From: a virus
DNA length: 64,000 bases
Virus record (IMG/VR): IMGVR_UViG_3300036820_000007
Coordinates: 1 to 64,000 of that record
Reading direction: 5' to 3' (one strand)
The notes beneath the pieces were generated by a model, which did no database searches, was not told where the DNA came from, and saw only the letters and a program-made list of their open reading frames with translations. Within the stretch, counting starts at the first letter, position 1, and the number at the start of each line of letters is the position of its first letter. The translations under genes were made by a program, and so were the position numbers. Positions 27,931 through 41,141 of the stretch are shown here, in pieces.

Positions 27931-28329
27931 ATGGCAGCTATTGTCGCCGCGCTGATCACGGTGGCCGGGACGGTCCTCTCGGCCCTGATCGCCGCCCGCC
28001 ACCGCGATATCCAGCCCGTTCCCCGCAACGGCGGCTCCTGGGAACCGCCCGTACGCGGCCCGTACTCGGTGGTGAGCACCGAGCCGGGCACCAGGCGCCT
28101 GAGCCGCAGCGTGTGGTTCGGTACGGCCAGCCTGATCGCCTGGTTCCTCCCGCTCATCGGGATACCGCTGGCACTGGCCGGGATCGGCATCGGCGTGTCG
28201 GACATCTCCGCCGCGGCCCGGCGGGCATATGCGCGGACCGGGGTCTACCTGGCCGTGATCGGGCTGATGGCCGCGGTGGCCAACTCGGCGATCGGGGCGT
28301 ACCTGGGGGCGCAGGCGGGGCTGCGGTGA
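27931..28329 (+). CDS. membrane protein (DUF4190-like)
   Basis: Three hydrophobic segments. Confidence 0.55.
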   Translation: MAAIVAALITVAGTVLSALIAARHRDIQPVPRNGGSWEPPVRGPYSVVSTEPGTRRLSRSVWFGTASLIAWFLPLIGIPLALAGIGIGVSDISAAARRAYARTGVYLAVIGLMAAVANSAIGAYLGAQAGLR

Positions 28330-28850
28330 TGGCGCTCGCGCTGCTCGGCGGTTATGCGGCGGCATGGGCCGTCACCGCGAGGACGCTGTTCACGCGCTGG
28401 CGGCCAGGACGCGTTCCGGTCAGATGCGATGACGCATGCTGTGCCGACAGTGGCCAGCGCCACGTCGTCCCGTGCTACCGCCAGATGCGCAAAGACCTGA
28501 CCCGGGTGGTCATCGACTACGACCGCGATGCCATTACGTGGGCAATGCTGGCCGCTGTGGTGTGGCCGGTGCTCGCACTGGCCGTCGCCGTCGCATTCCG
28601 CCCGCGGGAACTTGACGCGGAGCGCAAGGCCCGGGAGAAGCGCGAGTGCGAAGAGGCCGAGTCGCGCAAGGCGCGGCTGCAGGCGGAAATCAGCGTCCTC
28701 GAGAAGGAGGCGGATGAGCAGCGGGATCCCGTCCGGATCACAATCGCCCGGCGAGACGGTGGAGTCCCGGATCAGCCAGGACGTGGCGCTGCGCCTGCGG
28801 GCGCTGCAGGCCCTGCTGGCAGACCCGGAGGGGGAGGAGCCGGGGGATGA
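28329..28850 (+). CDS. membrane protein with coiled coil
   Basis: Hydrophobic segments then a charged helix. Confidence 0.5.
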   Translation: MALALLGGYAAAWAVTARTLFTRWRPGRVPVRCDDACCADSGQRHVVPCYRQMRKDLTRVVIDYDRDAITWAMLAAVVWPVLALAVAVAFRPRELDAERKAREKRECEEAESRKARLQAEISVLEKEADEQRDPVRITIARRDGGVPDQPGRGAAPAGAAGPAGRPGGGGAGG

Positions 28851-29240
28851 TCAAATGCGAGATGGCACGAGGCCGGCCACGCGCAGGCCAGAGGGTACAG
28901 CGGGCACCAGAGCCGGCACAGGTCCGTGACTACGTCCATGAATTCACGGTAAGCACCGGTACCGACAATGCCGACGACCTCTAACCAGATCCGCTCGCGC
29001 TGGCGTGAGCGAAGCCCGGAGGCCGTGGCGACGGCGCTCGAAGTCAAATGCCCCCCGCCCGAGGGGTGTGGCTCCCCGCCTGGATCCGAATGCGTCTCGT
29101 CGTCAGGCAAGCCCACCAGGGCGCACATCGCCCGCTTCGAGGCGCGAGCCGCCCAGTTGCGTAACTGGACGGCCATCCGCTGGGCCTGATCGCCTGACTC
29201 TTTTCTGATATCTGAATAGATGCACCTGTGGGGGTGAGCT

Positions 29241-32200
29241 ATGCCGGCCAGCCCCCGCACAATCATGCGCGCGCTCAAGGCGACCGCGCCGACGCCAGCG
29301 CAAGGCGGCTACAGCAGCAGTGCCGGGCCTTTTCTGAGCGGGGGGCCGTCGCCACTGGTCGCCTCGTATTCGGAGTGGGCCTCAGGGCATGCCTACGGGC
29401 AGTCCAACGCCTTGCCGCGGGACTGGCAGTCGTTCCTGTCGGGCATGTTCGGGCCCGGCGTGCCGGTGCGGCCAGTCCCGATCGATGTCCCGAAGCCCGG
29501 GGATGAGCGCCCGGAACCGCGTCGCTGGCAGTATCCCATCTCCTGGGACCTCAATCTAGGACAACCCGGTACAGAAGGTATCGGCAAACTAGCTGATTTC
29601 AATACACTTCGGACGCTGGCGGACATGTATTCGGTCGCCCGCAGCTGCATCCAGCTGCGGAAGTCCGAACTCCGCGGCGTGGGCTGGGACATCGCGCCGA
29701 CCAAGGACGCCAGCAAGGCGATGCGGGGCGACCACAAGGGCATGACCGAGTTCGCCAAGCGCCGGGCAGAGGCCGTGCGCTTTTTCAGGAGGCCGGACGA
29801 GAACTTTGCGGACTTCACCTCATGGTTTGACGCCATGCTTGAGGAGATCTTCGTCACTGACGCGCTCGCGCTTTATGTCCACCCATCGCGCCTGCCGGGC
29901 AAAGGGCTCTTTGGCTCGAACGTGGGGGCTCTCGACCTGATCGATGGGTCCCTTATTAAGCCTTTGGTCGATGTGCGCGGTTCGCGTCCTTCGCCACCGC
30001 AAGTGGCGTATCAGCAGTATTCATACGGCGTGCCCCGTGTGGACCTTATGTCCCTGATTCTGGACCGCGAAGACATGGGCGCCCCCGAAGCCGAATACCG
30101 CGGCGACCAGCTGATGTACCTGCCGCTATGCCAGCGTACGTGGTCGCCTTATGGGGAGTCGCCCGTCGAGAGGGCGATTATCCCGATCATGGCAGGGCTG
30201 CGTAAGCAGCAGTTTGTCCTAAATTACTTCGATGAGCGAAGTATTCCCGGGTGCTTCGTGTCCCCTGGTGACCCGAATATGACACCAAGTCAGATTCGTG
30301 AGCTTCAAGATGCTTTGAACAGCATTGCGGGCGACCAGACCTGGCAGCAGAAGATCATCGTCCTGCCGGGCGGCTCGAAAGTGGACCCGCAGAAGCCGAT
30401 CACGTTGGCGGACGCTTTCGACAACGTTGTCATGATTCAGGTATGTATGGCCTTCGACGTGATGCCGTTCGAGCTCGGCATCATGCCCGAGGTCTCCACG
30501 ACCGTGGCCTCCGGCGCGGCCCGGCAGATGGCGACCGCTGCCCAGGACATCCAGGAGCGCAAAGGCACCGTCCCGTTGCTGCTCTTCCTGAAGATGGCGA
30601 TCTTCGACCGCATCATCCAAGATGTATGTGGTATGTCCGACATGGAGTGGCAATGGGAGGGTTTGGAAGAGGACGAAGACGAACAAATCCTGACAGAACT
30701 CCTAGTCGCCCAGGTTGGCTCCGGCATGTGCTCGATCGACGAGGCCCGCCAGGAGCTCAACCGCGAGCCCTGGGGCCTGCCGATCACCTCCGACCCGGGC
30801 TGGGCCACCCAGTGGGGCGGCTTCGTCCCGCTCACCGGACTGGCGGGCGCGACCGCCCAGCAGCAGGGCGGCTCGCCAGCTCCGGGCAACCCGCAAGGCA
30901 AGCCGAACGCCCAGCCAGGCACTGTGCAGGGAAAGCCCGCCGACCTGACGCTGCCATCCGAAGTCGAGCACCGCGGCGCGCCCTCACCGGTGTCGGCAAC
31001 CGTCCCTGCCACGCGGCCACGTAACCAGCAGTCACGTGGCCAGCGCCGCCAGGTTGCGGCAACCGTCAGCGATCGCCAGCGGCGCACCGGGGCCACCACC
31101 CCCGCTCACGCAGCGGCAATGGCCACCGGTGGCCGCGGACCGAAATCCGGAGCGTCATCCAAGGGAGATGCTACCCGCGAGCTCGGCCTGCTGAAGGCAC
31201 ATCTGCGCCGCGGTGGCAGGGTCACCGACTGGGAGCCGCGTGACATCCCCGGCCACGCCATGGCCACTATCAGCGAGGACCTGGCCAAGGGCCTGACCGC
31301 TGATCAGGCATGCGACATAGTCCGCGACTTGATCACCAAGGACGGCAAGTCGATCACCTTGTCCTCGCCACTCGGCACCGGGTTCGTCCCGTACGACCTG
31401 GTCGGCCAGCGCCGCCCGTCGGCCGAAAGCCCGGCAGCGGCGGGCCTGGCCGTCCTCGCCGCGGACACGGGCCGCGTGCTCATGCTGCAGCGCGCTGCGA
31501 GCGATGACGATCCGGCTTCGGGGTGCTGGGAGTTCCCCGGCGGCTGCCTCGAGGATGGCGAGGACCCGGCGATGGGCGCAATGCGCGAATGGGCTGAGGA
31601 GGTCGGAGCATACTGCCCTGCTGGCGAGCCCGCAGGCGGCTGGACCTCGGCGGACGGTGTGTACGCAGGCCACATCCTGGTCGTCCCGTCCGAGGCGGCA
31701 GTACCCGTGCATGGCGATCGCGACGAGGTGTCCAATCCGGACGACCCGGACGGGGATGCAATCGAGGCAATCGCCTGGTTCGACCCTGCGCAGATCCCCG
31801 GCAACCCCGCGGTCCGCGACGAGCTCCGCGCCGATGCTCTCGCGGTGCTGCGCGCCCTGGCCGCCGCCCTGCCTGGTGGCGTAATCAAGAACGCGGCCGA
31901 TCTCTCGGACCCGAATCCCGTCGAGTCCGAGCACGTGAAGAATCAAATGCGCCGAAATTATCCAGAAAAGGCGCTCGGGTGGATCGACGGTGCCCGGTGG
32001 CTCGGCCCGGTCCGGATCCCGCAGGACCGCATCGACTACGACGACATGGACAAGTGGGCCGCTTCCCACCAGAAGGCCCGCGTTAAGCATTTCGCCCGCC
32101 AGATCGAGGACGACGAGTCTCACCTGCACCCCGTTGTCGCCGTCCAGGAGCCAGGCGAAAACAAGATCAAGGTGATCGATGGCCACCACCGCACCCTTGC

Positions 32201-32390
32201 CTACCGCAAGCTCGGCCAGCCTGTGAAGGCCTACGTCGGCTTCGTCGACCACGACGGCGGCGAGTGGGATGAGACCCACGCCTTCCAGTTCCACCAGGGC
32301 GAGGACCCGGCCAACAAGGGCGGTGGTGCCGGCCCAAAAGTTCGAGCAAGCGGGCCATCTGGCCCGGGCAGTGGCGGGACGAGCAGCTAG
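29241..32390 (+). CDS. portal protein fused to Nudix hydrolase and ParB/Srx-like domains
   Basis: Portal core (YGESPVE, YFDERSIPG, SIDEARQEL); Nudix box GGCLEDGEDPAMGAMREWAEEVG; VIDGHHR. Confidence 0.85.
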   Translation: MPASPRTIMRALKATAPTPAQGGYSSSAGPFLSGGPSPLVASYSEWASGHAYGQSNALPRDWQSFLSGMFGPGVPVRPVPIDVPKPGDERPEPRRWQYPISWDLNLGQPGTEGIGKLADFNTLRTLADMYSVARSCIQLRKSELRGVGWDIAPTKDASKAMRGDHKGMTEFAKRRAEAVRFFRRPDENFADFTSWFDAMLEEIFVTDALALYVHPSRLPGKGLFGSNVGALDLIDGSLIKPLVDVRGSRPSPPQVAYQQYSYGVPRVDLMSLILDREDMGAPEAEYRGDQLMYLPLCQRTWSPYGESPVERAIIPIMAGLRKQQFVLNYFDERSIPGCFVSPGDPNMTPSQIRELQDALNSIAGDQTWQQKIIVLPGGSKVDPQKPITLADAFDNVVMIQVCMAFDVMPFELGIMPEVSTTVASGAARQMATAAQDIQERKGTVPLLLFLKMAIFDRIIQDVCGMSDMEWQWEGLEEDEDEQILTELLVAQVGSGMCSIDEARQELNREPWGLPITSDPGWATQWGGFVPLTGLAGATAQQQGGSPAPGNPQGKPNAQPGTVQGKPADLTLPSEVEHRGAPSPVSATVPATRPRNQQSRGQRRQVAATVSDRQRRTGATTPAHAAAMATGGRGPKSGASSKGDATRELGLLKAHLRRGGRVTDWEPRDIPGHAMATISEDLAKGLTADQACDIVRDLITKDGKSITLSSPLGTGFVPYDLVGQRRPSAESPAAAGLAVLAADTGRVLMLQRAASDDDPASGCWEFPGGCLEDGEDPAMGAMREWAEEVGAYCPAGEPAGGWTSADGVYAGHILVVPSEAAVPVHGDRDEVSNPDDPDGDAIEAIAWFDPAQIPGNPAVRDELRADALAVLRALAAALPGGVIKNAADLSDPNPVESEHVKNQMRRNYPEKALGWIDGARWLGPVRIPQDRIDYDDMDKWAASHQKARVKHFARQIEDDESHLHPVVAVQEPGENKIKVIDGHHRTLAYRKLGQPVKAYVGFVDHDGGEWDETHAFQFHQGEDPANKGGGAGPKVRASGPSGPGSGGTSS
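32333..32339 (+). other. putative -1 frameshift site C CCA AAA (portal to MuF)
   Basis: -1 frame is open from 32273 to 34294 with no start codon before 32606; same GGCCCAAAAG as the tail chaperone site. Confidence 0.75.
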
Positions 32391-34294
32391 CTGACGAGTA
32401 CGCCCAGGACTTCTCCCGCCAGCTGGCCGCCGCGGTCAACGCGGAACTGATCGCTCAGGGCTGGCTGGACGAATGCCAGGCCGCCGAAAAGGCCAGCAGG
32501 CCGCAGCAGAGCCAGAGTCAGCAGCAACGGCAGCAGCAGCAAGCCCGCCAGCAGCAGGCCCGGAGGTACCTGGCGGCGGCCGGGGTCACCGGCGCGATCG
32601 CCTCGGTGATCGGTGGCATCCTCGCCCTTCTCTGGCGCGCTGCGTTCGCGCTCGGCTGGGCCGCGGCCATCCAGATCCTCGGCGTGGGCGGCCTGGTCGG
32701 CGACGAGGCCGCGCTGGGAGACCTGCTCTCGCAGTCCGGGCCGCGGCTGGACGGCATCGTCGAGACACGCATCAAGCGTCTCGAGCAGGCCCTGGCCGCC
32801 GCAGCGGACTCGGGCGTCTCGGCCGGTGAGCTTGCCCAGCAGATCACGGCGATCCTTGGCGGCCGAGCTCCGGCCCGGCTGGTGACCCAGACGGAAACGT
32901 CGTGGGGTGCCGGTCACGCGCAGGTGGCCGCTTACCGAGCAGCCGGAGTGGCGCAAGTTATCTGGCAGACGATGAACGACTCCGAAGTGTGTTTCCCTGC
33001 CGGAACGCCGGTGGCGACGCCCTCAGGCGATGTCCTGATCGAATCCCTGAGGCCCGGTGATCTCGTCCTCACCCCACAGGGGCAGCGTGCCGTCCGTGAT
33101 ACCGGTAGTCGGCTTTACGCGGGCTGCGTCACGGTGCTTGAGGCGGAAGGGGCGACGGTCGCTGCGACGGACGATCATCCGTTCTGGACCGCCGCTGGCT
33201 GGCGGAAGGCGGGACAGCTCGAGCCCGGGGACCTCCTGCAGACGTCCGAGAACCAGTTCGCAGAGGTCGGCCGCGTTGTTCACGTCCGATTCGGCAAGCC
33301 GGACGACGTGCCAGCCCATCTGCCGGAGCGCCCTGTCCTTGATGGCGTCGCTCTCGGGACGCAATTGGTGCCAGTACTCCCCATCGGCCTCAAGGGCGAT
33401 CCATGCTTCCGTGAGAGCGAAGTCGATCGTCCAGTTTTTGACTTGCAGTTCCTGAACGAAGCTGATCCCGAGAGCCGCGAGCGCTTGCCTGACGCGAAAC
33501 TCGAGCATGGTTTCACCCGTGAACTTGCGATAACAGCTGCGGGAGCAAAATCGTCGACCGTTAGCCGGAGCGGAGGGGACGATCCGGAAGCAGTTGCCGC
33601 AGTTGGCGCAGTCCATGTAGACGGGCGGCCGACGGCACTCTTCGGAGCAGTGGTGCCGAGGGTATCGCTTGTCGGCCAGGAACCGGTTGCCGCACCGTTC
33701 GCAGTTGAGGTACTCGGTGTCGGCTGTGGTGCACGCCCTGGAGCAGGTGTTGTACCTGTCAGCGGTGGACTGGCTGACGCTGAATTCCTTCCCGCAGACG
33801 GTGCAGTGCTTAGTGACGCGCCGACTGGAACCCATGCATTCGCGCGAGCAGTAGGCCCGGTCCTGGCGCCCGGTCGTGCAGCCGGGCGCAGGCTGGCGGG
33901 GGTCGAATTGCTTACCGCAGCCGAGGCACTCCCGGGTGGGATAGACGATAGTGTCGGCATGGTAGCAGTCCCTGGAGCAATAGACATGCTCCTTCTTGGT
34001 TCGGCTGCGACGCTGGAAACCTTTGCCACAATGGTCGCAGATGTATGGGAAAGGCATCCTAATGCTCGCGTCCTCGATCTAGGGGAAATCAATGCGCCAT
34101 TGACAGTTTACAATATTGAAGTAGAAGTTGAGCACGTATTTTATGCGTGTCGCTTCCTTGTGCACAATTGCGGTCGATGCCATGGCAATCAAGCAGCAGG
34201 CCCGTGGCCACTGGGCAGCCCATTCCCGAGTGGGGCGCTCAGTCCGCCACAACATCCCAGATGTCGTTGCTTTTTGCGACCTTCCGGACATTAG
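32333..34294 (+). CDS. MuF/gp7-like head morphogenesis protein with intein
   Basis: TETSW; spliced VCGRC; HPRCRC. Confidence 0.82.
   Translation, partial: PKSSSKRAIWPGQWRDEQLADEYAQDFSRQLAAAVNAELIAQGWLDECQAAEKASRPQQSQSQQQRQQQQARQQQARRYLAAAGVTGAIASVIGGILALLWRAAFALGWAAAIQILGVGGLVGDEAALGDLLSQSGPRLDGIVETRIKRLEQALAAAADSGVSAGELAQQITAILGGRAPARLVTQTETSWGAGHAQVAAYRAAGVAQVIWQTMNDSEVCFPAGTPVATPSGDVLIESLRPGDLVLTPQGQRAVRDTGSRLYAGCVTVLEAEGATVAATDDHPFWTAAGWRKAGQLEPGDLLQTSENQFAEVGRVVHVRFGKPDDVPAHLPERPVLDGVALGTQLVPVLPIGLKGDPCFRESEVDRPVFDLQFLNEADPESRERLPDAKLEHGFTRELAITAAGAKSSTVSRSGGDDPEAVAAVGAVHVDGRPTALFGAVVPRVSLVGQEPVAAPFAVEVLGVGCGARPGAGVVPVSGGLADAEFLPADGAVLSDAPTGTHAFARAVGPVLAPGRAAGRRLAGVELLTAAEALPGGIDDSVGMVAVPGAIDMLLLGSAATLETFATMVADVWERHPNARVLDLGEINAPLTVYNIEVEVEHVFYACRFLVHNCGRCHGNQAAGPWPLGSPFPSGALSPPQHPRCRCFLRPSGH
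32990..34168 (+). mobile_element. intein (393 aa) in MuF
   Basis: Block A CFPAGTPV, block B TDDHPFW, block F VYNIEVE, block G VHN followed by Cys. Confidence 0.9.
33023..34057 (-). CDS. Zn-finger-repeat plus DUF559/Vsr-like endonuclease, antisense inside the intein
   Basis: Five CxxC...CSxxC repeats; IDFA, LEADGEYWH, KDRAL, GWHVVRL. Confidence 0.85.
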   Translation of the reverse strand: MPFPYICDHCGKGFQRRSRTKKEHVYCSRDCYHADTIVYPTRECLGCGKQFDPRQPAPGCTTGRQDRAYCSRECMGSSRRVTKHCTVCGKEFSVSQSTADRYNTCSRACTTADTEYLNCERCGNRFLADKRYPRHHCSEECRRPPVYMDCANCGNCFRIVPSAPANGRRFCSRSCYRKFTGETMLEFRVRQALAALGISFVQELQVKNWTIDFALTEAWIALEADGEYWHQLRPESDAIKDRALRQMGWHVVRLAESDVNNAADLCELVLGRLQEVPGLELSRLPPASGGPERMIVRRSDRRPFRLKHRDAARVKPTTGITDGTLPLWGEDEITGPQGFDQDIA

Positions 34295-34376
34295 TTGCGC
34301 AGGCTTGCCTGCACCGGCTTGCTGTTTCGCCGATTCGCCGACCGCAGGCGCAAGCGGCGTCTGCCATGATGGGTAC

Positions 34377-34766
34377 ATGAGCGATGCACTGCGCCTGCGC
34401 GGTACTGCGGCTCGCGCGGGGGAGCCGGACCAGTCGATCGGCCTGGGCGTAACGGTGCCCGAGGAAGTATCGGTGACGATCGAGTTCAGCCGGGATCATA
34501 CTGTCGGTACGGCTGCGCTCTGGAGAGATGAAGCTGGCGACATTCAGGCCGACGTCATGGTGTTCCTGGACAGCGATCCGCTCTTGCGTAAAGGGATGCA
34601 AGGCCGGAGGTTGTGGCCCTACTTCGCGCTAAGCATCGGCCAGACGGTTGTCAGCAAGGACGACGCGCACCCGATGGGCGTCATCAGCTCCGGCGTGGTA
34701 CGTGAACTGGCGCTCGTCACCCGCAACTCTGACCCTGACCTGCCGCCGTACGAGATCGTCCAGTAG
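34377..34766 (+). CDS. hypothetical protein
   Basis: ATG 34377, phage codon usage. Confidence 0.5.
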   Translation: MSDALRLRGTAARAGEPDQSIGLGVTVPEEVSVTIEFSRDHTVGTAALWRDEAGDIQADVMVFLDSDPLLRKGMQGRRLWPYFALSIGQTVVSKDDAHPMGVISSGVVRELALVTRNSDPDLPPYEIVQ

Positions 34767-35110
34767 GGCCCGAGTTACCCTGCTCCGGCGTGTCATCCCA
34801 GGTTGGGGTGACAACGCCCGTATGTGACGTGTACCCTAGGCGTCAGTCGAAGGAGTATGCCCCGAGTTCGGCGTCACGCCAAGTCAGGGGCCTTTTTCAT
34901 GCCCGGGGCCAGCGGCAGGGACTCCCGATTCTCCACCCTGCATACCGGGGCCGCCGGTGTTGCCCCCGGCGCGGGTTCTCGCGAACGCCCGGCGTCCTGA
35001 ATTTGTGGATCGTATCTATTAGACGACGCTGGCCAGCCTGGAGCCTAGCGCAGCCCGTTCCCCCGCGGGCAGGCTAACCCGTTCGCACACTCGCACACTC
35101 GCACATTCGC

Positions 35111-35144
35111 ACGCCCGCCTCCCGGCCGGGCGTTTTTTCTTTGC
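35111..35144 (+). terminator. intrinsic terminator-like hairpin
   Basis: ACGCCCG/CGGGCGT stem followed by a T-tract. Confidence 0.5.
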
Positions 35145-35158
35145 CGGGGGGAGCAATC

Positions 35159-38134
35159 GTGGCGCACACCACTGCCGATGCCCTGACGTACGTCTCGTTT
35201 CCTATCGAGAAATTCGAGGAGGACGACGAGGGCAACCTGATCGTCGTCGGCAAGGCGACGGACGGCAGCGTCGACAGCGACCGCCAGATCGTCGACCCGG
35301 GCTGGAGCGCGAAGGCTCTGGGGGACTGGCACGACACGGGTGGCAACGTGCGTGTGATGCACAATCCGGGCCTCTACCCGGCCGGCCGCAGCCTGAAGGT
35401 GGAGACCTCGGCGGACGGCCACACGGTGAAGGCCCTCGTCGTCGAGGACACGGCGAAGAAGCTGGTCAAGAACCGCGTCCTGCGCGCCTACTCGGTCGGC
35501 ATCGCCGAGCCCGTGATCGAGCGCGACATGACCGGCAAGGCGGTCGGTGGCCGCATCACAGGTGGCCGCATCGTCGAATTGTCCCTAGTTGACCGACCTG
35601 CCAACAAAAATTGCGGTTTGACCCTCGCCAAGGCAGAAGGCCATGACGCGGCCTGGTCATACGGCGACCTGGACGCCCTGCTCGAGAAGGCTGAGAAGGC
35701 CGAGGAGCAGCCCGGCGAGGCAGCCCACGACCCGGCCGATCCGAACGCGCCCAGCGACGGCGAGGAAGTCGACCAGTCGGACGTGGTCAAGGCCGACGGC
35801 GGCGGCGACTCGGGTGGCGAGGGCGGCGGCAGCGAAGGTGCACAGGGAGACTCCGCGTCAGCCGACCAGGCCGACGGCGACGGCGACGATGATGGCGGCG
35901 AGGCCGTGAAGATGGCCGGCGACGCTTACCGGGCCGCGCGCAAGGAGTGGCTTGGCCGCGAGCCGGGCACCAAGGGGATCACCGGCGGCACGGAGTACTT
36001 GGCCAAGCGCGCTGACTGGCACCGGTGGAACGCCGAAGGCGAAGCGGAAGGCCTGGACGGCACCCGCGAAGGCGCTGAGCGCTGGCTGGCGAAGCAGGCG
36101 GCAGAAGCTCCCGCCGCAGACGCAGACAAGCGCGACTTCTCGGCCTCCGAGCGCCGGTCCGCTGCCAGCAGCGGGGCCGCTATGAGCGACGGCAGCTTCC
36201 CGATCAAGACGAAGGAAGACCTCAAAAACGCGATCCATCTGGCCGGCCACGCCAAGGACCCGGGCAAGGCCCGCGCACACATCAAGGCCCGCGCGGCCGC
36301 GATCGGCGCCTCGGACATGATCCCGGACTCGTGGAAGATCGACACCGCTGAGATCCCGGCTGACGTCACGCTGGCCAAGCTCGAGAGCGACGGCGAGGTG
36401 AGCACGGAGATCGCCAAGGCCATGCTCGGTGACGAGCAGTACGGCGTGCTCACCAAGGCGGACTCCACCGCAGCGGCGCCAGGGAAGACGAAGTGCGGCA
36501 CCTGCAGCGGCAGCGGCTCGATCAAAGACGGCAACGTGACCTGCCCGGACTGCAAGGGCAAGGGCAAGATGAAGCCGAAGAAGGCAGCCAAGGCCGCGGC
36601 CCTCGCGGCCGTTGCTGAGATGGTGGCCAAGTCGGTCACCGCCGGGCTGATCTCCGAGAAGGCCGCCCAGGACATCCTGCACCAGGTGCAGCCCGAAGGC
36701 GGATTCCTGCACCAGTCCGGCAAGCGCCCCCTTCCCGCCGACGTGGCTGCGGTAGCGCACCACCGCGAGCCGGACGGCTCCAGCGGCGTCGAGCAGTTCG
36801 AGCACGACTCGGGCCTGCCCACCCAGGCCGACGCGGTCGCCGACAAGGTCCCGTCCTCGGTAGATGCCCTGCAGATGAAGTCTGACGCCCCTTACGCGGT
36901 GGCGCGGATGCACGACGCGTTCTGTGCCGCCTGGAGCGGTGACGCCGTGCTCGGCGAGTACCCGTCCCTGAAGAGCGCCGCCGATGCCGCGGACCCGGCG
37001 TGGTTCACCGCGCAGGCCCAGAAGGCAGTCGATGCTGGCTATGCCAGTGATGCGATAGAGCTGCTCACGCTGGCCAAGGAAGCCGCCGCGGTGAAGTCGG
37101 CGGATGCTGCAGTCATCGCTGACGGGCGCGCGGAACTGCACAAGGCGTTCTCCGACATGTACCCGTCGGAGCGGATCCGGCCGGGCGACCCTCGCAAGCC
37201 AGGCTCGTTCCAGCGGCCCTACCTGTCCGCCGGTCACGCCACTGAGCACGCAGGCGGCAGCACGAACGTCCCGCCGTCCACGGACACGCCCGCGCCGGAC
37301 CAGTTCCACCGCGGCTACCTCAGCGAAGGCCACGCGGACCCATCCCCGGCCGACAACGGGCCGAACAACCGGGCCGCGCCGACGACCGGGTCCGCCAGGA
37401 CCTACTACACGACCTCGGCCAAGGAGCAGGCGCGCGTCGCGATGCAGGCCATGCACGACCACATCGCGGCCAGCCACCCCGAACTCTGCCCGATGGCCCC
37501 GTCCAAGAGCGTCATGCCGCCGGACCTGGGCGCGCGCAACGTGCCGCAGCCGAAGGCCCCGATGGCCATGGGCGGCGTCGCCGGAGTGGGCAAGGCCGCG
37601 GATGCCTCGGCGAACGGCGCGCTGGAGACCCAGAACGAGCAGGCCTTCGGCCAGGCTAAGCCGCCGAAGAACCGCAAGAAGAAGAAGCTCTCCAAGGGCG
37701 AGTTCTTCAGCTACGCACAGCGGCACGGCCTCACCGTCGTGCCCGCCAGCGAAGGCCCGGTTCCGGTGCCGCAGCCAGCTCCCGACCCGGTGGCCGTCAA
37801 GGCCCTGGTCGCCGAGCAGCTGACCCCGCTCACCGAGCACTACGAGAAGCAGATTTCCGAGCTCCGCCTCCAGGTGGACAAGCTCGGGGCACAGCCCGAT
37901 CCGGCCATGGCCCCCGTGCGCGGCCCGATGGCACGGCCCGGTGCGACCGGCGCAGCTCCCGTGGAGAAGCGCAGCCTGGTCGATGAAGCACGCGAGCGCG
38001 CCGACCACATGGCGGCCGCAGAGCGGCGCGACTTCATGGCGTATGTGGAAATGCAGAGCCGCTCACCTGACCCGAAAGTCCGCGAGAAGGCAATGGCCAT
38101 CATCGAGAAGATGGACGCCACCGTTCCCGCCTGA
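35159..38134 (+). CDS. prohead protease / scaffold fusion with DnaJ-type Zn finger
   Basis: HK97-type protease (VRVMH, AYSVGI, ELSLVDRPAN); CGTCSGSG...CPDCKGKG; C-terminal coiled coil. Confidence 0.82.
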   Translation: MAHTTADALTYVSFPIEKFEEDDEGNLIVVGKATDGSVDSDRQIVDPGWSAKALGDWHDTGGNVRVMHNPGLYPAGRSLKVETSADGHTVKALVVEDTAKKLVKNRVLRAYSVGIAEPVIERDMTGKAVGGRITGGRIVELSLVDRPANKNCGLTLAKAEGHDAAWSYGDLDALLEKAEKAEEQPGEAAHDPADPNAPSDGEEVDQSDVVKADGGGDSGGEGGGSEGAQGDSASADQADGDGDDDGGEAVKMAGDAYRAARKEWLGREPGTKGITGGTEYLAKRADWHRWNAEGEAEGLDGTREGAERWLAKQAAEAPAADADKRDFSASERRSAASSGAAMSDGSFPIKTKEDLKNAIHLAGHAKDPGKARAHIKARAAAIGASDMIPDSWKIDTAEIPADVTLAKLESDGEVSTEIAKAMLGDEQYGVLTKADSTAAAPGKTKCGTCSGSGSIKDGNVTCPDCKGKGKMKPKKAAKAAALAAVAEMVAKSVTAGLISEKAAQDILHQVQPEGGFLHQSGKRPLPADVAAVAHHREPDGSSGVEQFEHDSGLPTQADAVADKVPSSVDALQMKSDAPYAVARMHDAFCAAWSGDAVLGEYPSLKSAADAADPAWFTAQAQKAVDAGYASDAIELLTLAKEAAAVKSADAAVIADGRAELHKAFSDMYPSERIRPGDPRKPGSFQRPYLSAGHATEHAGGSTNVPPSTDTPAPDQFHRGYLSEGHADPSPADNGPNNRAAPTTGSARTYYTTSAKEQARVAMQAMHDHIAASHPELCPMAPSKSVMPPDLGARNVPQPKAPMAMGGVAGVGKAADASANGALETQNEQAFGQAKPPKNRKKKKLSKGEFFSYAQRHGLTVVPASEGPVPVPQPAPDPVAVKALVAEQLTPLTEHYEKQISELRLQVDKLGAQPDPAMAPVRGPMARPGATGAAPVEKRSLVDEARERADHMAAAERRDFMAYVEMQSRSPDPKVREKAMAIIEKMDATVPA

Positions 38135-38195
38135 TTCCAAGCGCACGTATTCGAGGCCCCGCGCAGGGGCCTTTTGCATGCCAGGGAGCATGTTT

Positions 38196-40091
38196 ATGAA
38201 CGACGCAAGTAACGCGGCCGGCACTGCGGTGCTGCCGTACGGGTCTGCCGCCTCGGCAGCCCTTGAGCGCGCGGGCTCCGACGACCGCTGGTATGCGGAC
38301 GCCGACTCGAACGCGTACCGCTCTCCGGACCTGATGCTGAGCGACAAGATGCCGACGCTCGTCAAGGGCGCAGGCTATGCGCGGGTCGGCGGCAACATGC
38401 CGCTGTCCGACGACGAGCAGATCTTCCGCCGGTCGATGAAAGCCGAGCACGCTTTCCGCAAGGCAATTAAGCGGGGCATCGAGGAGCCAGCCGAGGTCGT
38501 CAAGGGCATGAGTCCTGACTTCGCCGGCCAGTTCGGCGCTTTCATGAACGCCTCGCCGCAGAATCAGGCTCTCCAGAACCTGGTTGGCCAGCTGAACAAC
38601 CAGCTGTCCGATGCTCTCGGCAAGTCGATCACGCTGACGTCGCCGCTCAACACGGGCTTCGTCCCGTTTGACCTGGTTGCGCCCAGTTCCCTTATCTATC
38701 CGGTATATAGCCCGATTCGCAACAAATTGCCCCGTGTGCCTGGGCAGGGCGTGAACCGGCAGCGCAAGGTGATCACCGGCGTCAGCGGTTCACAGACCGG
38801 CCCGTCGGGCGGCAAGTTCGTCCGCCTGGCGATCCCTGAGCTCGTGCAGTCCGGCGGTTCGGTCAGCGGCGCCAGCGGTTCAGTCAACTGGCCGCTGAAC
38901 CTGCCGGGGACCGGCGCACAGGACAGCGTCGACCTGACGATTCCTTACAGGTTCTGGGGACTTTCCGAAAACCTGTCCTGGCTTGCGCAGTTCGCCGGCC
39001 AAGGGTTCGAAGACATTTCCGCACTGGCGAATCTCTTGCTGCTCCAGGAGTTCATGCTCAACGAGGAAGCGGCCCACCTGGGCGCCACCTCGCTGGCCCT
39101 GTCGGCTCCCGGCGCGCCGACGCTGACCGCCCGTGCGGCCAACTCGGGCGAAGCGGCCATTACGGGTCCAACCAGCGGAAATAATGTATATGTGGAGGTA
39201 GTGGCCAATACCTTCTTCGGGGGTACGGCTGCCGGCTCTTCGCAGAGCACCGTCTGGACCACCGGCCAGGTCGTCGACGTACAGATCGCTCCCGTCGCGG
39301 GCGCTCTGTACTACTCGCTCTACATCACCTACGGTGCCTCCGCGGGCACCTACTACCTGCAGGCCACCAACATCGGCGGCCTGTACTTCACGCTCCAGGG
39401 CGCCCTGGTGTCCACGGGCACGGCCGCTCCGTCCTCGGACACCGGCTCGTACTCGGCGAATGACCAGGAAGGCCTGATCGCCGTCCTGTCCGGCCACTCG
39501 GCCACCGGCGGATCCAAGGTGTACCCGGCGAACTGGCAGGCTGGCTACTTCAACCAGTCAGTGGGAGACACGCTCCGTACTTCGGTGCTGAACAACGCGC
39601 TCCAGAACCTCTGGGACGGGACGGGCAACACCTACGGGGCTTACCGCGCGGACCCCGCGGAGATCATCGCCGAAGGTGGCGATGTCATGCGCCTGAGCAA
39701 CGACATCGTCCAGCAGGGCACCGCGACCAACTACCAGCTGTTCGTCCAGCAGTCCGAGGTTCCGGGCGTCAGGCTCGGTGCTGCGGTCTCCGAGTTCCAG
39801 AACCCGATCACACGCAGCGTCGTGAGGGTCGTGGTTCACCCCTGGCTGCCGCAGGGCAACGTCCTGCTGATGTCCTACACGATGCCGTTCGCATGGTCCA
39901 ACGTGTCGAACGTGGTCGAGTTTGTGGCGGTTCAGGACTATTTGTCCATTTCGTGGCCGGTGATAGATGCCTCGTTTAGGTACTCTATGTTCCTTTTCGG
40001 GGCACTTGTTGTAAACGCACCTTTCTACTGCGGACTCCTACAAGGTATCCAAAAGTCGGACAGGTCGGGCACAACGGGCACCTGGTCCTAG
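38196..40091 (+). CDS. major capsid protein
   Basis: Follows protease; 631 aa; VHPWLPQG; strong terminator downstream. Confidence 0.8.
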   Translation: MNDASNAAGTAVLPYGSAASAALERAGSDDRWYADADSNAYRSPDLMLSDKMPTLVKGAGYARVGGNMPLSDDEQIFRRSMKAEHAFRKAIKRGIEEPAEVVKGMSPDFAGQFGAFMNASPQNQALQNLVGQLNNQLSDALGKSITLTSPLNTGFVPFDLVAPSSLIYPVYSPIRNKLPRVPGQGVNRQRKVITGVSGSQTGPSGGKFVRLAIPELVQSGGSVSGASGSVNWPLNLPGTGAQDSVDLTIPYRFWGLSENLSWLAQFAGQGFEDISALANLLLLQEFMLNEEAAHLGATSLALSAPGAPTLTARAANSGEAAITGPTSGNNVYVEVVANTFFGGTAAGSSQSTVWTTGQVVDVQIAPVAGALYYSLYITYGASAGTYYLQATNIGGLYFTLQGALVSTGTAAPSSDTGSYSANDQEGLIAVLSGHSATGGSKVYPANWQAGYFNQSVGDTLRTSVLNNALQNLWDGTGNTYGAYRADPAEIIAEGGDVMRLSNDIVQQGTATNYQLFVQQSEVPGVRLGAAVSEFQNPITRSVVRVVVHPWLPQGNVLLMSYTMPFAWSNVSNVVEFVAVQDYLSISWPVIDASFRYSMFLFGALVVNAPFYCGLLQGIQKSDRSGTTGTWS

Positions 40092-40099
40092 TCAGTCAG

Positions 40100-40140
40100 A
40101 AAACCCCAGGGCCCGGGAAGCGTGTTCCCGGGCCCTGGGG
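40100..40140. terminator. bidirectional terminator
   Basis: 16-bp perfect stem 40104-40119 / 40125-40140 between convergent genes. Confidence 0.8.
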
Positions 40141-40164
40141 CCTGACTCTGGCCGGCTAGGACTA

Positions 40165-40401
40165 TCAGCCGGATTCGGGCTTGCGGTAGAAGCCGTAGTC
40201 GTCAGCTACCGGGCCATCCAGGACGTAGCCCTGGTCATGCAAGCTCTGCAGGAAGTCCGCGAAGTCGCGGGCCTTCTGCGCCGCCTCAGCGAGCGTCGCG
40301 GCCCCGTCGATGGTCCACTTCGCCCGGACGGTCTCAGTGCCGTCCCCGGCCTCGTCCGCGTCATCCTCAAGATCCGCAACCTCTGGCCTGATACCGCTCA
40401 C
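40165..40401 (-). CDS. small acidic hypothetical protein (moron)
   Basis: GTG after GAGAGGAG, the left-arm type RBS. Confidence 0.7.
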   Translation of the reverse strand: MSGIRPEVADLEDDADEAGDGTETVRAKWTIDGAATLAEAAQKARDFADFLQSLHDQGYVLDGPVADDYGFYRKPESG

Positions 40402-40505
40402 TGCCGATCTCCTCTCGGTTGGGTCGTGCTTCCCAAGCCTGCCAGAAGCCACTGACAACGCGCCGGGGCGACACCGCGCGGCCTTGAAATAAAGGAGCAC
40501 CGAAC

Positions 40506-40847
40506 ATGACGTTCCCGACGCCGCCGGGTGACCAGATCCTGGCATCGCCGACGATCTTCGCCTACCCGCCGCAGATGCCCGGCGTGAACACTTCGACGTT
40601 CCCTGCGGTCACTGCGCCGACTTTCCCGGCCACGACTGTCGCCGTGTCCAACACGACAGGCGTGGACGTGGTGGCCTATGTCACCAACGGCGCTGGCGCG
40701 ATGACCGCCATCAAGGTCAGCGGTACGAACACGGGGCTGGGAGCCGCTGCCTCCACCGGTTTCGCCACGGTGTACATCCCGGCCGGCGCGACGTTCTCCT
40801 GCACCTACGGGTCAGGGACGCCGACCTGGGTGTGGGTCGCGGTCTGA
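40506..40847 (+). CDS. putative virion/decoration protein
   Basis: AAGGAG RBS; Thr/Gly-rich. Confidence 0.6.
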   Translation: MTFPTPPGDQILASPTIFAYPPQMPGVNTSTFPAVTAPTFPATTVAVSNTTGVDVVAYVTNGAGAMTAIKVSGTNTGLGAAASTGFATVYIPAGATFSCTYGSGTPTWVWVAV

Positions 40848-40850
40848 CCC

Positions 40851-41141
40851 GTGGCCGGGTCCCAGCAGTTCAGCGTCACCTCCGCCACGGCTGTTCCGGT
40901 TGCGTCAGCGCCGGGCAGCGGCGTGCCGCAGGCAACCATCCCCGGTCCCGTTGGCTGGTTTTACCTGGCCAACAGCAGTTCCGGTGCCATCTACATCGGC
41001 GGGGCGAACGTGAGCAGCAGCAACGGCGCCCTGGTCGCGGCCAGCGGCACGTTCAGCGGATTCCTGTTCTCCGGCGACACCATCTACGCGATCGCCTCGT
41101 CGACGACCAGCACAGTGTCTGTGCTCCAGACGGGAGCGTGA
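40851..41141 (+). CDS. putative virion protein
   Basis: Ser/Gly-rich ORF in the structural operon. Confidence 0.6.
   Translation: MAGSQQFSVTSATAVPVASAPGSGVPQATIPGPVGWFYLANSSSGAIYIGGANVSSSNGALVAASGTFSGFLFSGDTIYAIASSTTSTVSVLQTGA

What the first reader, a model, noticed from the sequence alone, without database searches (positions are those of the whole stretch)
31344..31403. Portal fusion carries a 20-aa copy of a major-capsid peptide just before its Nudix domain
Seen: portal GKSITLSSPLGTGFVPYDLV versus capsid (38619-38678) GKSITLTSPLNTGFVPFDLV, 17/20 identical. Six of the identical residues use different codons, which suggests selection on the peptide rather than a recent DNA copy. In the capsid it follows a ~140-aa leader, where a K/S maturation cut and mature N-arm would be expected for an HK97-type protein. 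Inference: a shared prohead-protease site and/or N-arm mimic that releases the Nudix-ParB enzymes and docks them inside the shell, similar in concept to encapsulin cargo loading.
Basis: partly seen in the sequence, partly recalled or inferred. Interest (0 to 1): 0.82.

Follow-up and report, generated by a model that had tools for sequence, protein, structure and literature searches.

The report
Capsid-junction peptide reused in head proteins
This soil actinophage's portal-enzyme fusion carries a 20-residue copy of the place where its capsid protein's removable leader meets the shell fold; related phages put similar copies in other internal head proteins, so it is probably a maturation or loading signal, but nothing has been tested at the bench.

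Summary
In detail: 17/20 residues and 48/60 bases match, with 6 synonymous codon differences (pairwise BLASTP E=6e-7).

**Capsid context.** The peptide starts where a helical ~141-residue leader ends and the HK97-fold core begins. It is the most conserved N-terminal block in 43 capsid relatives. A T4 gp21-like prohead protease, fused to an ~800-residue scaffold, is encoded just upstream of the capsid gene.

**Portal copy.** It sits at the 5' edge of a peptide+Nudix insertion. Portals about 60% identical lack that insertion; four portals at least 91% identical keep it.

**New result.** Similar in-frame copies occur in four other uncultured phages. Three are in protease-scaffold proteins of one clade and one is in a distant ParB fusion. 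All five non-capsid copies are followed by Gly-Gln. In 61 of 66 unique capsid-type contexts, x-Pro follows instead.

**Best reading (0.55).** It is a reusable short motif that marks internal head proteins for the prohead protease and/or for docking to the shell.

**Weaknesses.**
All three substitutions occur in natural capsid variants, so an unsampled donor capsid could explain them.
- Neither cleavage nor docking is shown.
- This scan has noted a similar portal-tail copy on other DNA (e1-5985797).

Verdict: a new variant of a known kind.

The parts
29241..32390 (+). Portal polyprotein, 1049 aa: portal core, conserved linker, capsid-like peptide, Nudix, ParB-like domain
   Evidence: ORF and translation. 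Pfam Phage_portal at residues 177-507 and NUDIX at 733-855. The ParB-like part matches relatives.
31173..31343 (+). Conserved portal C-terminal linker (RELGLLKAHLRRGG...W.P...), which precedes variable cargo in relatives
   Evidence: Found in many relatives in front of ParB, 2H+Nudix or MuF. Aligns to L101 at E=2e-12.
31344..31403 (+). Portal copy of the capsid-junction peptide, GKSITLSSPLGTGFVPYDLV
   Evidence: Kept in four portal homologues at least 91% identical, with changes only at positions 1, 7 and 8.
31404..31409 (+). Gly-Gln dipeptide that follows every non-capsid copy
   Evidence: GQ follows all five non-capsid copies (window, L024, L041, L088, L101). In 61 of 66 unique pattern contexts x-Pro follows instead.
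31344..31892 (+). Insertion relative to L014-type portals: peptide + 10-residue spacer + Nudix domain, lying between ...KD and AADLSDPNP
   Evidence: The L014 portal reads ...ARDVLAKD|AADLTDPNPVEAEHV without this segment. AAGGAC and AAGAAC flank the insertion.
35141..38134 (+). Prohead protease (about residues 1-155) fused to a long scaffold-like region with a zinc ribbon
   Evidence: The AlphaFold model of residues 1-190 (pLDDT 80) matches T4 gp21 protease 5jbl (probability 1.00, TM 0.60-0.68) and then herpesvirus assemblins. H74 and S118 are invariant in 36 homologues.
38196..38618 (+). Capsid N-terminal leader, about 141 aa, predicted helical (delta-domain-like)
   Evidence: AlphaFold helices 44-62, 73-96, 98-104, 107-119 and 122-141. 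Arthrobacter phages Sonali and Mufasa8 lack it.
38619..38678 (+). Capsid copy of the peptide, GKSITLTSPLNTGFVPFDLV, at the start of the N-arm
   Evidence: K143, G154, V156, P157 and L160 are invariant in 43 capsids. Predicted extended with low confidence, lying before the E-loop strands and the spine helix.
38679..40091 (+). HK97-fold capsid core with an inserted beta-rich domain
   Evidence: Foldseek hits to the SPO1, SU10, Pa223, HK97 and T5 capsids and to encapsulins. phrog_13692 at E=1.6e-69.

Best explanation
The 20-residue peptide is a reusable short linear motif taken from the capsid protein's leader/N-arm junction. In the capsid it marks where the helical assembly leader ends and the shell-forming fold begins. 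This is the place where HK97-type phages trim the leader with their prohead protease.

The same motif, followed by Gly-Gln, has been placed in frame in proteins that lie inside the procapsid. Here it sits between the portal's C-terminal linker and the Nudix-ParB cargo. In other phages it sits in the protease-scaffold protein or in a ParB fusion.

Most likely the phage's own gp21-like protease, or the surface that normally holds the N-arm, recognises the copy as it recognises the capsid junction. The enzyme cargo would then be cut from the portal inside the head at maturation. It might stay attached to the shell through its N-arm-like end until it is ejected into the host.

Shown: the sequence match, its position in the fold, the protease gene, and the recurrence in relatives. 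Inferred: cleavage, the scissile bond, and docking.
For: - **The match is real and sharply bounded**.
- **Position in the capsid.** It begins exactly at the end of the last leader helix and precedes the E-loop and spine helix of an HK97 fold. It is the most conserved N-terminal block of 43 capsids.
- **A protease is present.** A prohead protease with a gp21 fold and invariant His74/Ser118 is encoded between portal and capsid.
- **Recurrence.** Scans of IMG/VR, JGI metagenomes and GTDB genomes found the motif almost only in capsids. The exceptions are in-frame copies in L024, L041 and L088 (scaffold proteins) and L101 (ParB-linker fusion), each followed by GQ.
- **At least two origins by gene and clade.** The scaffold copies belong to one capsid clade. 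The window lies in another and its copy is in a different gene.
- **Selection across distance.** Between the window and L101, the motif plus GQ..P is 16/24 identical, while the adjacent linker is 17/74.
- **Precedent.** Prohead proteases cut capsid, portal and internal proteins at a shared motif in SPN3US, phiKZ and T4 (PMC10052503). Effectors fused to portal or MuF need processing (PMC5512222). No zincin peptidase domain is found in this polyprotein.
Against: - No cleavage, packaging or binding data exist.
- The motif is sporadic. This phage's own scaffold has only a degenerate remnant at the homologous place, and most relatives' scaffolds and portals lack it.
- Among portals at least 91% identical, the peptide is no better conserved than its surroundings.
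- Twenty residues is long for a protease site.
- The portal copy could be a capsid fragment brought in with the Nudix insertion.
- Covariation with the phage's own capsid is weak for L041 and L088, at 11/20.
Confidence: 0.55

Rival explanations
1. The copy is a recombination relic. The Nudix module entered the portal gene by illegitimate or microhomology-mediated recombination and carried a 60-base fragment of some relative's capsid gene at its 5' edge. It stays in frame only because it lies in an essential ORF, and it has no role of its own.
For: - The peptide is exactly the 5' end of an insertion absent from L014-type portals, with AAGGAC and AAGAAC at the two junctions.
- All three substitutions occur in natural capsids.
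- The region just after the peptide is a hot spot for group I introns in relatives, so it undergoes frequent DNA breakage and repair.
- The Nudix domain is a shuffled module.
- The motif is absent from most relatives.
Against: - Five of five non-capsid copies are in frame, all lie in internal head proteins, and all are followed by GQ, which no capsid context has.
- The motif is about three times better conserved than the flanking linker between the window and L101.
- The scaffold copy is retained across the L024/L041/L088 clade while its downstream flank varies.
- No sampled capsid is closer than 48/60 bases, so no recent donor is in sight.
Confidence: 0.22
2. The copy is an N-arm mimic used only for docking. 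It is not cut. It binds the groove on neighbouring capsid subunits that normally receives an N-arm. For example, it could fill the sites left empty where the portal replaces a penton, or tether scaffold and cargo to the shell, much like encapsulin cargo-loading peptides.
For: - Conservation extends over all 20 residues with a pattern of hydrophobic residues and Pro/Gly (K, I/V, T, P, G, VP, F/Y, D/N, L). That suits an extended binding strand better than a short protease site.
- The segment is predicted to be disordered in the monomer, as N-arms are until assembled.
- Portal C-terminal extensions face the capsid interior (general knowledge).
Against: - Every capsid subunit brings its own N-arm, so free sites are few.
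- The window's own scaffold lacks the motif.
- There is no structural or covariation evidence.
Confidence: 0.15
3. The copy is a by-product of mobile introns. The 60 bases are part of the target of a homing endonuclease from the introns that sit right after this peptide in relatives' capsid genes. They reached the portal gene through ectopic homing with exon co-conversion.
For: Group I introns interrupt relatives' capsid genes at residues 160/161, 163/164 and 169/170, next to the 3' end of the peptide.
Against: - No intron or endonuclease remnant lies beside the portal copy, and Rfam finds nothing in 28000-41000.
- Only the upstream exon is copied.
- This idea does not explain the scaffold copies or the GQ.
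Confidence: 0.05

Closest known systems
Shared prohead-protease cleavage motifs in capsid, portal and internal proteins (T4 gp21 at L/I-x-E; phiKZ and SPN3US gp245 at A-x-E; PMC10052503)
   Same: One head protease processes the capsid leader, the portal and the packaged proteins through a common sequence element. Here too a gp21-fold protease is encoded in the head module, and the same element lies in the capsid and in a portal-cargo fusion.
   Different: The known motifs are 3-5 residues long and remove N-terminal propeptides. Here the shared element is 20 residues, copies the capsid's own leader/N-arm junction, lies internally between portal and cargo, and cleavage is unproven.
HK97 gp5 delta-domain removal by gp4 at K103/S104 and T5 pb8 scaffolding-domain removal by pb11 (PMC5292684 for T5; HK97 from general knowledge)
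   Same: An N-terminal helical leader fused to an HK97-fold capsid, a dedicated protease gene, and an invariant Lys followed by a small polar residue at the junction.
   Different: This phage has both a leader on the capsid and a separate, very large protease-scaffold protein. No copy of the junction in other head proteins has been reported for HK97 or T5.
T4 capsid-targeting sequence (CTS) of internal proteins IPI-III and Alt
   Same: A short portable peptide that brings non-structural proteins into the prohead and is handled by the prohead protease.
   Different: The CTS is an N-terminal leader with no resemblance to the capsid protein. This motif is internal and is derived from the capsid.
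Encapsulin cargo-loading peptides
   Same: A short peptide on enzyme cargo that binds the inside of an HK97-fold shell. The capsid model also matches encapsulin shells.
   Different: Encapsulin peptides are terminal, are not copies of the shell protein, and are not linked to a protease. Binding was not shown here.
Polyvalent proteins of phages: portal- or MuF-anchored effector arrays (Iyer et al. 2017, PMC5512222)
   Same: Nudix, ParB-like and 2H domains are fused to portal or MuF and are presumed to be packaged and injected.
   Different: Those proteins are proposed to be processed by an embedded zincin-like peptidase. None is found here, and a capsid-junction motif sits at the portal-cargo boundary instead.

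Membership tests
HK97-fold major capsid protein with a removable N-terminal leader | HK97 fold (N-arm, E-loop, spine helix, P and A domains) | tested here: met
   AlphaFold model (pLDDT 71.5). Foldseek hits to the SPO1, SU10, Pa223, HK97 and T5 capsids at probability 1.00.
HK97-fold major capsid protein with a removable N-terminal leader | Helical N-terminal domain ahead of the N-arm | tested here: met
   Helices span residues 44-141 and the peptide begins at 142. The leader is moderately conserved in 43 relatives.
HK97-fold major capsid protein with a removable N-terminal leader | Leader removed by the prohead protease at the junction | not testable with these tools
   Needs virion N-terminal sequencing or mass spectrometry.
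Prohead serine protease (T4 gp21 / HK97 gp4 / herpesvirus assemblin fold) | Assemblin-like fold | tested here: met
   Residues 1-190 of the 35141-38134 product match 5jbl (T4 gp21) at TM 0.60-0.68 and E=2e-5, followed by herpesvirus proteases.
Prohead serine protease (T4 gp21 / HK97 gp4 / herpesvirus assemblin fold) | Conserved catalytic His and Ser | tested here: met
   H74 and S118 are invariant in 36 homologues. Their spatial superposition on the gp21 catalytic residues was not checked.
Prohead serine protease (T4 gp21 / HK97 gp4 / herpesvirus assemblin fold) | Match to a curated sequence family (Pfam S77/S78) | tested here: not met
   No Pfam hit even at E<=5. Only phrog_21715, of unknown function, matches.
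Prohead-protease substrate motif / capsid-targeting signal | Same sequence element present in the capsid precursor and in other internal head proteins | tested here: met
   Portal fusion in the window, scaffold proteins in L024, L041 and L088, and a ParB fusion in L101.
Prohead-protease substrate motif / capsid-targeting signal | Cleavage at the element, or element-dependent packaging | not testable with these tools
   No proteomic data exist for this uncultured phage.
Encapsulin-type cargo-loading peptide | Peptide binds a defined pocket on the shell interior | not tested
Polyvalent protein (Iyer et al. 2017) | Several effector domains fused to a portal or MuF anchor in a head-gene context | tested here: met
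   Portal + NUDIX + ParB-like domain. Relatives add 2H and MuF domains.
Polyvalent protein (Iyer et al. 2017) | Embedded zincin-like metallopeptidase for self-processing | tested here: not met
   Pfam finds only Phage_portal and NUDIX in the 1049-aa protein.

The most novel reading that the evidence does not exclude
The motif is a true N-arm mimic. Internal head proteins (the portal extension, the scaffold, the enzyme cargo) would plug into the capsid lattice by presenting a copy of the capsid's own N-arm. This would include the N-arm sites left vacant around the portal vertex. It would amount to an encapsulin-like, lattice-encoded cargo-loading system in tailed phages, with the Gly-Gln marking the release point.
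Probability: 0.15. Interest if true: 0.8.

Novelty: new variant of a known kind. Interest (0 to 1): 0.55.

Why it matters
Phages that deliver enzymes with their DNA must load them into the head and free them from their anchors. In T4 and the jumbo phages this is done with short leader tags and a three-residue protease motif. Here the tag appears to be a 20-residue copy of the capsid's own maturation junction, reused in portal, scaffold and cargo proteins of several soil actinophages. If that is confirmed, it gives three things:
- a simple sequence rule for predicting which proteins are packaged and processed in this large uncultured group;
- a portable tag for loading foreign proteins into HK97-type capsids;
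- a possible evolutionary bridge to encapsulin cargo loading.

It also identifies the likely maturation site of a capsid family (phrog_13692) that has no experimental data.

Tried and rejected
- **Complex prediction.** I modelled the protease domain (alignment A3) with portal residues 690-735. The verdict was no answer, score 0.00. This counts neither for nor against binding.
- **Protein database search.** The search for homologous proteins with portal residues 690-730 returned only the query's own cluster. The peptide is too short for a database of that size.
- **Contig look-ups.** I could therefore compute no dN/dS on portal copies and could not pair them with their capsids.
- **L101 capsid.** The genome search on the L101 record was not possible, so the L101 capsid is unknown.
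- **Donor search.** No capsid is closer to the portal copy than 48/60 bases.
- **A 'GQ-specific' DNA pattern in IMG/VR** found only L024's contig.
- **Pfam.** It gave nothing for the protease domain, the linker or the capsid leader.
- **Rejected remnant.** I first took 'SGMISLDL' in L006 for a motif remnant. It is the start of a 2H-phosphoesterase-like domain.
- **Cleavage after the peptide.** Cleavage at DLV|AP or DLV|GQ seems less likely than K|S, because the residue before AP or GQ varies freely while the Lys is invariant. Neither is tested.
- **Tree.** The careful tree search did not finish, so the quick tree was used. Capsids split by introns and the two Arthrobacter phages were left out of it.

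Full report
**1. The observation**

- They share 17 of 20 residues. BLASTP gives E=6e-7 for the two whole proteins, and nothing else between them is significant.
- They share 48 of 60 bases, with six synonymous and three non-synonymous codon differences. DNA similarity ends abruptly on both sides.
- A profile built from capsid copies of relatives finds the portal copy at E=4e-10 among all six-frame ORFs of about 125 loci.

**2. The genes involved**

The window is a virus record. It is high in G+C, and its capsid relatives occur in Streptomyces, Actinoallomurus, Cellulomonadaceae, Acidimicrobiaceae and Dormibacteria assemblies.

*Portal polyprotein (29241-32390, 1049 aa).*
- portal core, Pfam residues 177-507
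- low-complexity stretch
- conserved ~60-residue linker (RELGLLKAHLRRGG...)
- the peptide, residues 702-721
- Gly-Gln and a short spacer
- Nudix domain, residues 733-855
- ParB-like domain

I did not test that.

*Protease-scaffold protein (35141-38134, 997 aa).*
- Its first ~155 residues fold like the T4 gp21 prohead protease (5jbl, TM 0.60-0.68, probability 1.00), with herpesvirus assemblins next.
- His74 and Ser118 are invariant in 36 homologues.
- No Pfam model matches it.

*Capsid gene (38196-40091).*
- It gives an HK97-fold model. Foldseek matches the SPO1, SU10, Pa223, HK97 and T5 capsids and encapsulins.
- The model has a helical leader up to residue 141.
- An extended, low-confidence segment follows at 142-166. 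By HK97 topology this is the N-arm.
- The E-loop strands, a spine helix at 271-296 and an inserted beta-rich domain come next.

The peptide therefore begins exactly where leader turns into N-arm.

In an alignment of 43 capsids, K143, G154, V156, P157 and L160 are invariant. The block 142-185 is the best conserved part of the N-terminal half. Arthrobacter phages Sonali and Mufasa8 have a related capsid that lacks the leader and starts about 20 residues before this block. Their portal-Nudix-MuF fusions have no copy.

**3. Where the portal copy came from**

IMG/VR relatives with portals about 60% identical (L003, L004, L007, L014, L025) keep the linker and then go straight into ParB. L014 reads ...ARDVLAKD|AADLTDPNPVEAEHV. 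The window has peptide + spacer + Nudix inserted at that point (31344-31892), with AAGGAC and AAGAAC at the two junctions.

The Nudix domain is a shuffled module:

| Locus | Nudix follows |
|---|---|
| L023 | MuF |
| L024 | ParB |
| L006 | a 2H-like domain |

Four portal proteins 91-100% identical to the window's all keep the peptide, with variation only at positions 1, 7 and 8. At that distance the peptide is no better conserved than its surroundings.

No capsid gene in the sample is closer to the portal copy than 48/60 bases, so there is no recent donor in view. However, all three amino-acid differences occur in natural capsid variants:
- S7 in L005
- G11 in L009-L011 and L021
- Y17 in L018, L019 and L023

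**4. The new evidence: recurrence**

I scanned three collections with a codon-level DNA pattern for K.[IV][TS]...PL..G[FL]VP[FY][DN]L.

| Collection | Stretches matched |
|---|---|
| IMG/VR | 46 |
| JGI metagenomes | 54 |
| GTDB genomes | 5 |

I also ran the peptide profile over all fetched loci. Of 66 unique contexts, 61 are capsid N-arms followed by x-Pro (usually APS.LIYPVYSP). Two more are capsid contexts that break off at an intron.

The exceptions are in-frame copies in other head proteins:

| Locus | Sequence | Host protein |
|---|---|---|
| L024 | VKNITTTQPLSSGLVPFNLQ-GQ | protease-scaffold |
| L041 | NKDITLTSPDPDGMAPFNLQ-GQ | protease-scaffold |
| L088 | TKDITLSAPDPQGLVPYNLA-GQ | protease-scaffold |
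| L101 | DKSITLSQPLASGLVPFDLA-GQ | after ParB and the same linker domain as in the window |

All five non-capsid copies, including the window's, are followed by Gly-Gln. No capsid context is.

On a capsid tree, L041 and L088 are sisters. Together with L024 they lie in a six-member clade. The other three members have lost the whole scaffold segment. The window lies in a different clade, and its copy is in a different gene.

Between the window and L101, the motif plus GQ..P is 16/24 identical while the neighbouring linker is 17/74. If these two copies are homologous, the motif has been kept under constraint. If they are independent, the shared GQ is convergent. Both cases argue for function.

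The limits of this evidence are:
- The motif is sporadic.
- The window's own scaffold has only ADVTLAKLESDG at the homologous place.
- Similarity to the phage's own capsid is high for the window (17/20) and L024 (15/20), but ordinary for L041 and L088 (11/20).

**5. Mechanism**

Portal C-terminal extensions, scaffold proteins and the prohead protease all sit inside the procapsid (general knowledge). In T4, phiKZ and SPN3US one protease trims the capsid, the portal and the packaged proteins at a common motif (PMC10052503). Polyvalent effector arrays anchored to portal or MuF are thought to need processing (PMC5512222). This polyprotein has no peptidase domain of its own.

The simplest reading is that the copied junction lets the head protease treat the portal-cargo boundary like the capsid leader-core boundary, releasing Nudix-ParB inside the head. 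The invariant Lys followed by Ser, Asn or Asp recalls the HK97 K103/S104 cut (general knowledge), but the bond is unproven.

Conservation over all 20 residues suggests that the segment is also bound as an extended strand. Docking to the shell or to the protease may therefore be part of the function.

I give 0.55 to 'functional maturation or loading motif' as a whole. A recombination relic (0.22), docking without cutting (0.15) and an intron-homing by-product (0.05) remain open.

**6. Comparison and novelty**

The logic is that of the T4 CTS and of shared protease motifs, so the kind is known. Four features are unusual:
- the signal is a long copy of the capsid's own junction;
- it lies internally at a portal-cargo boundary;
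- it carries a private Gly-Gln mark;
- it recurs in scaffold proteins.

I found no paper describing this. The scan itself has noted a similar portal-tail copy of a capsid junction in another genome (e1-5985797) and a capsid N-arm mini-gene (e1-5338774). Those notes are unchecked and are not evidence, but they suggest the theme is wider.

Verdict: a real feature, a new variant of a known kind, of moderate interest, needing proteomics.

Noticed in passing
L006 11738-11997; L020 5202-5546; L021 9688-9947; L017 12610-12880; also L014, L015, L016, L025, L073, L078, L090, L093, L106, L107, L111, L117, L118, L121: The capsid genes of many relatives are split by group I introns (Rfam RF00028). There are up to four per gene (L021), at recurrent sites. 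Three of those sites lie within ten codons after the peptide. Of 66 unique motif contexts, 11 break off within 15 codons. The window's own capsid gene is uninterrupted.
   Followed up: partly
window 31173-31343 and homologous places in L003, L006, L007, L009, L014, L024, L025, L042, L064, L084, L099, L101: A conserved ~60-residue linker (RELxLLRxxLRKGG...W.P) follows the portal in many relatives. It precedes whatever cargo is fused: ParB, 2H+Nudix or MuF. It has no Pfam family and may be a docking or hinge domain for portal-anchored cargo.
   Followed up: partly
L023 ~1900-2350; L024 3589-4038; L006 1674-2102: The Nudix domain changes place among relatives. It comes after MuF in L023, after ParB in L024 and after a 2H-phosphoesterase-like domain in L006. 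In L024 a single 1805-aa ORF holds portal, ParB, Nudix and MuF.
   Followed up: partly
window 36359-36394: At the place where L024, L041 and L088 scaffolds carry the motif (just after the IPDSW anchor), the window's own protease-scaffold protein reads ADVTLAKLESDG. This may be a decayed remnant of the motif.
   Followed up: no
L024 7389-9935 and L113 (scaffold ORFs): The scaffold proteins carry another recurrent short motif, PFPGAAPPF.KK. It appears twice in L113 and is embedded in acidic and basic low-complexity sequence.
   Followed up: no
L101 8486-10561 (- strand): The gene after the ParB-motif protein in L101 is a large MuF fusion. It has an N-terminal acetyltransferase-like segment and an unassigned C-terminal domain. 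No protease or capsid gene follows it, so this phage's head module is arranged differently.
   Followed up: no
window 32606-34294: The MuF-like protein contains a Hint-type intein (Pfam Hint_2 at E=1e-11). Earlier notes of this scan treat the intein and a possible frameshift that joins portal and MuF.
   Followed up: no
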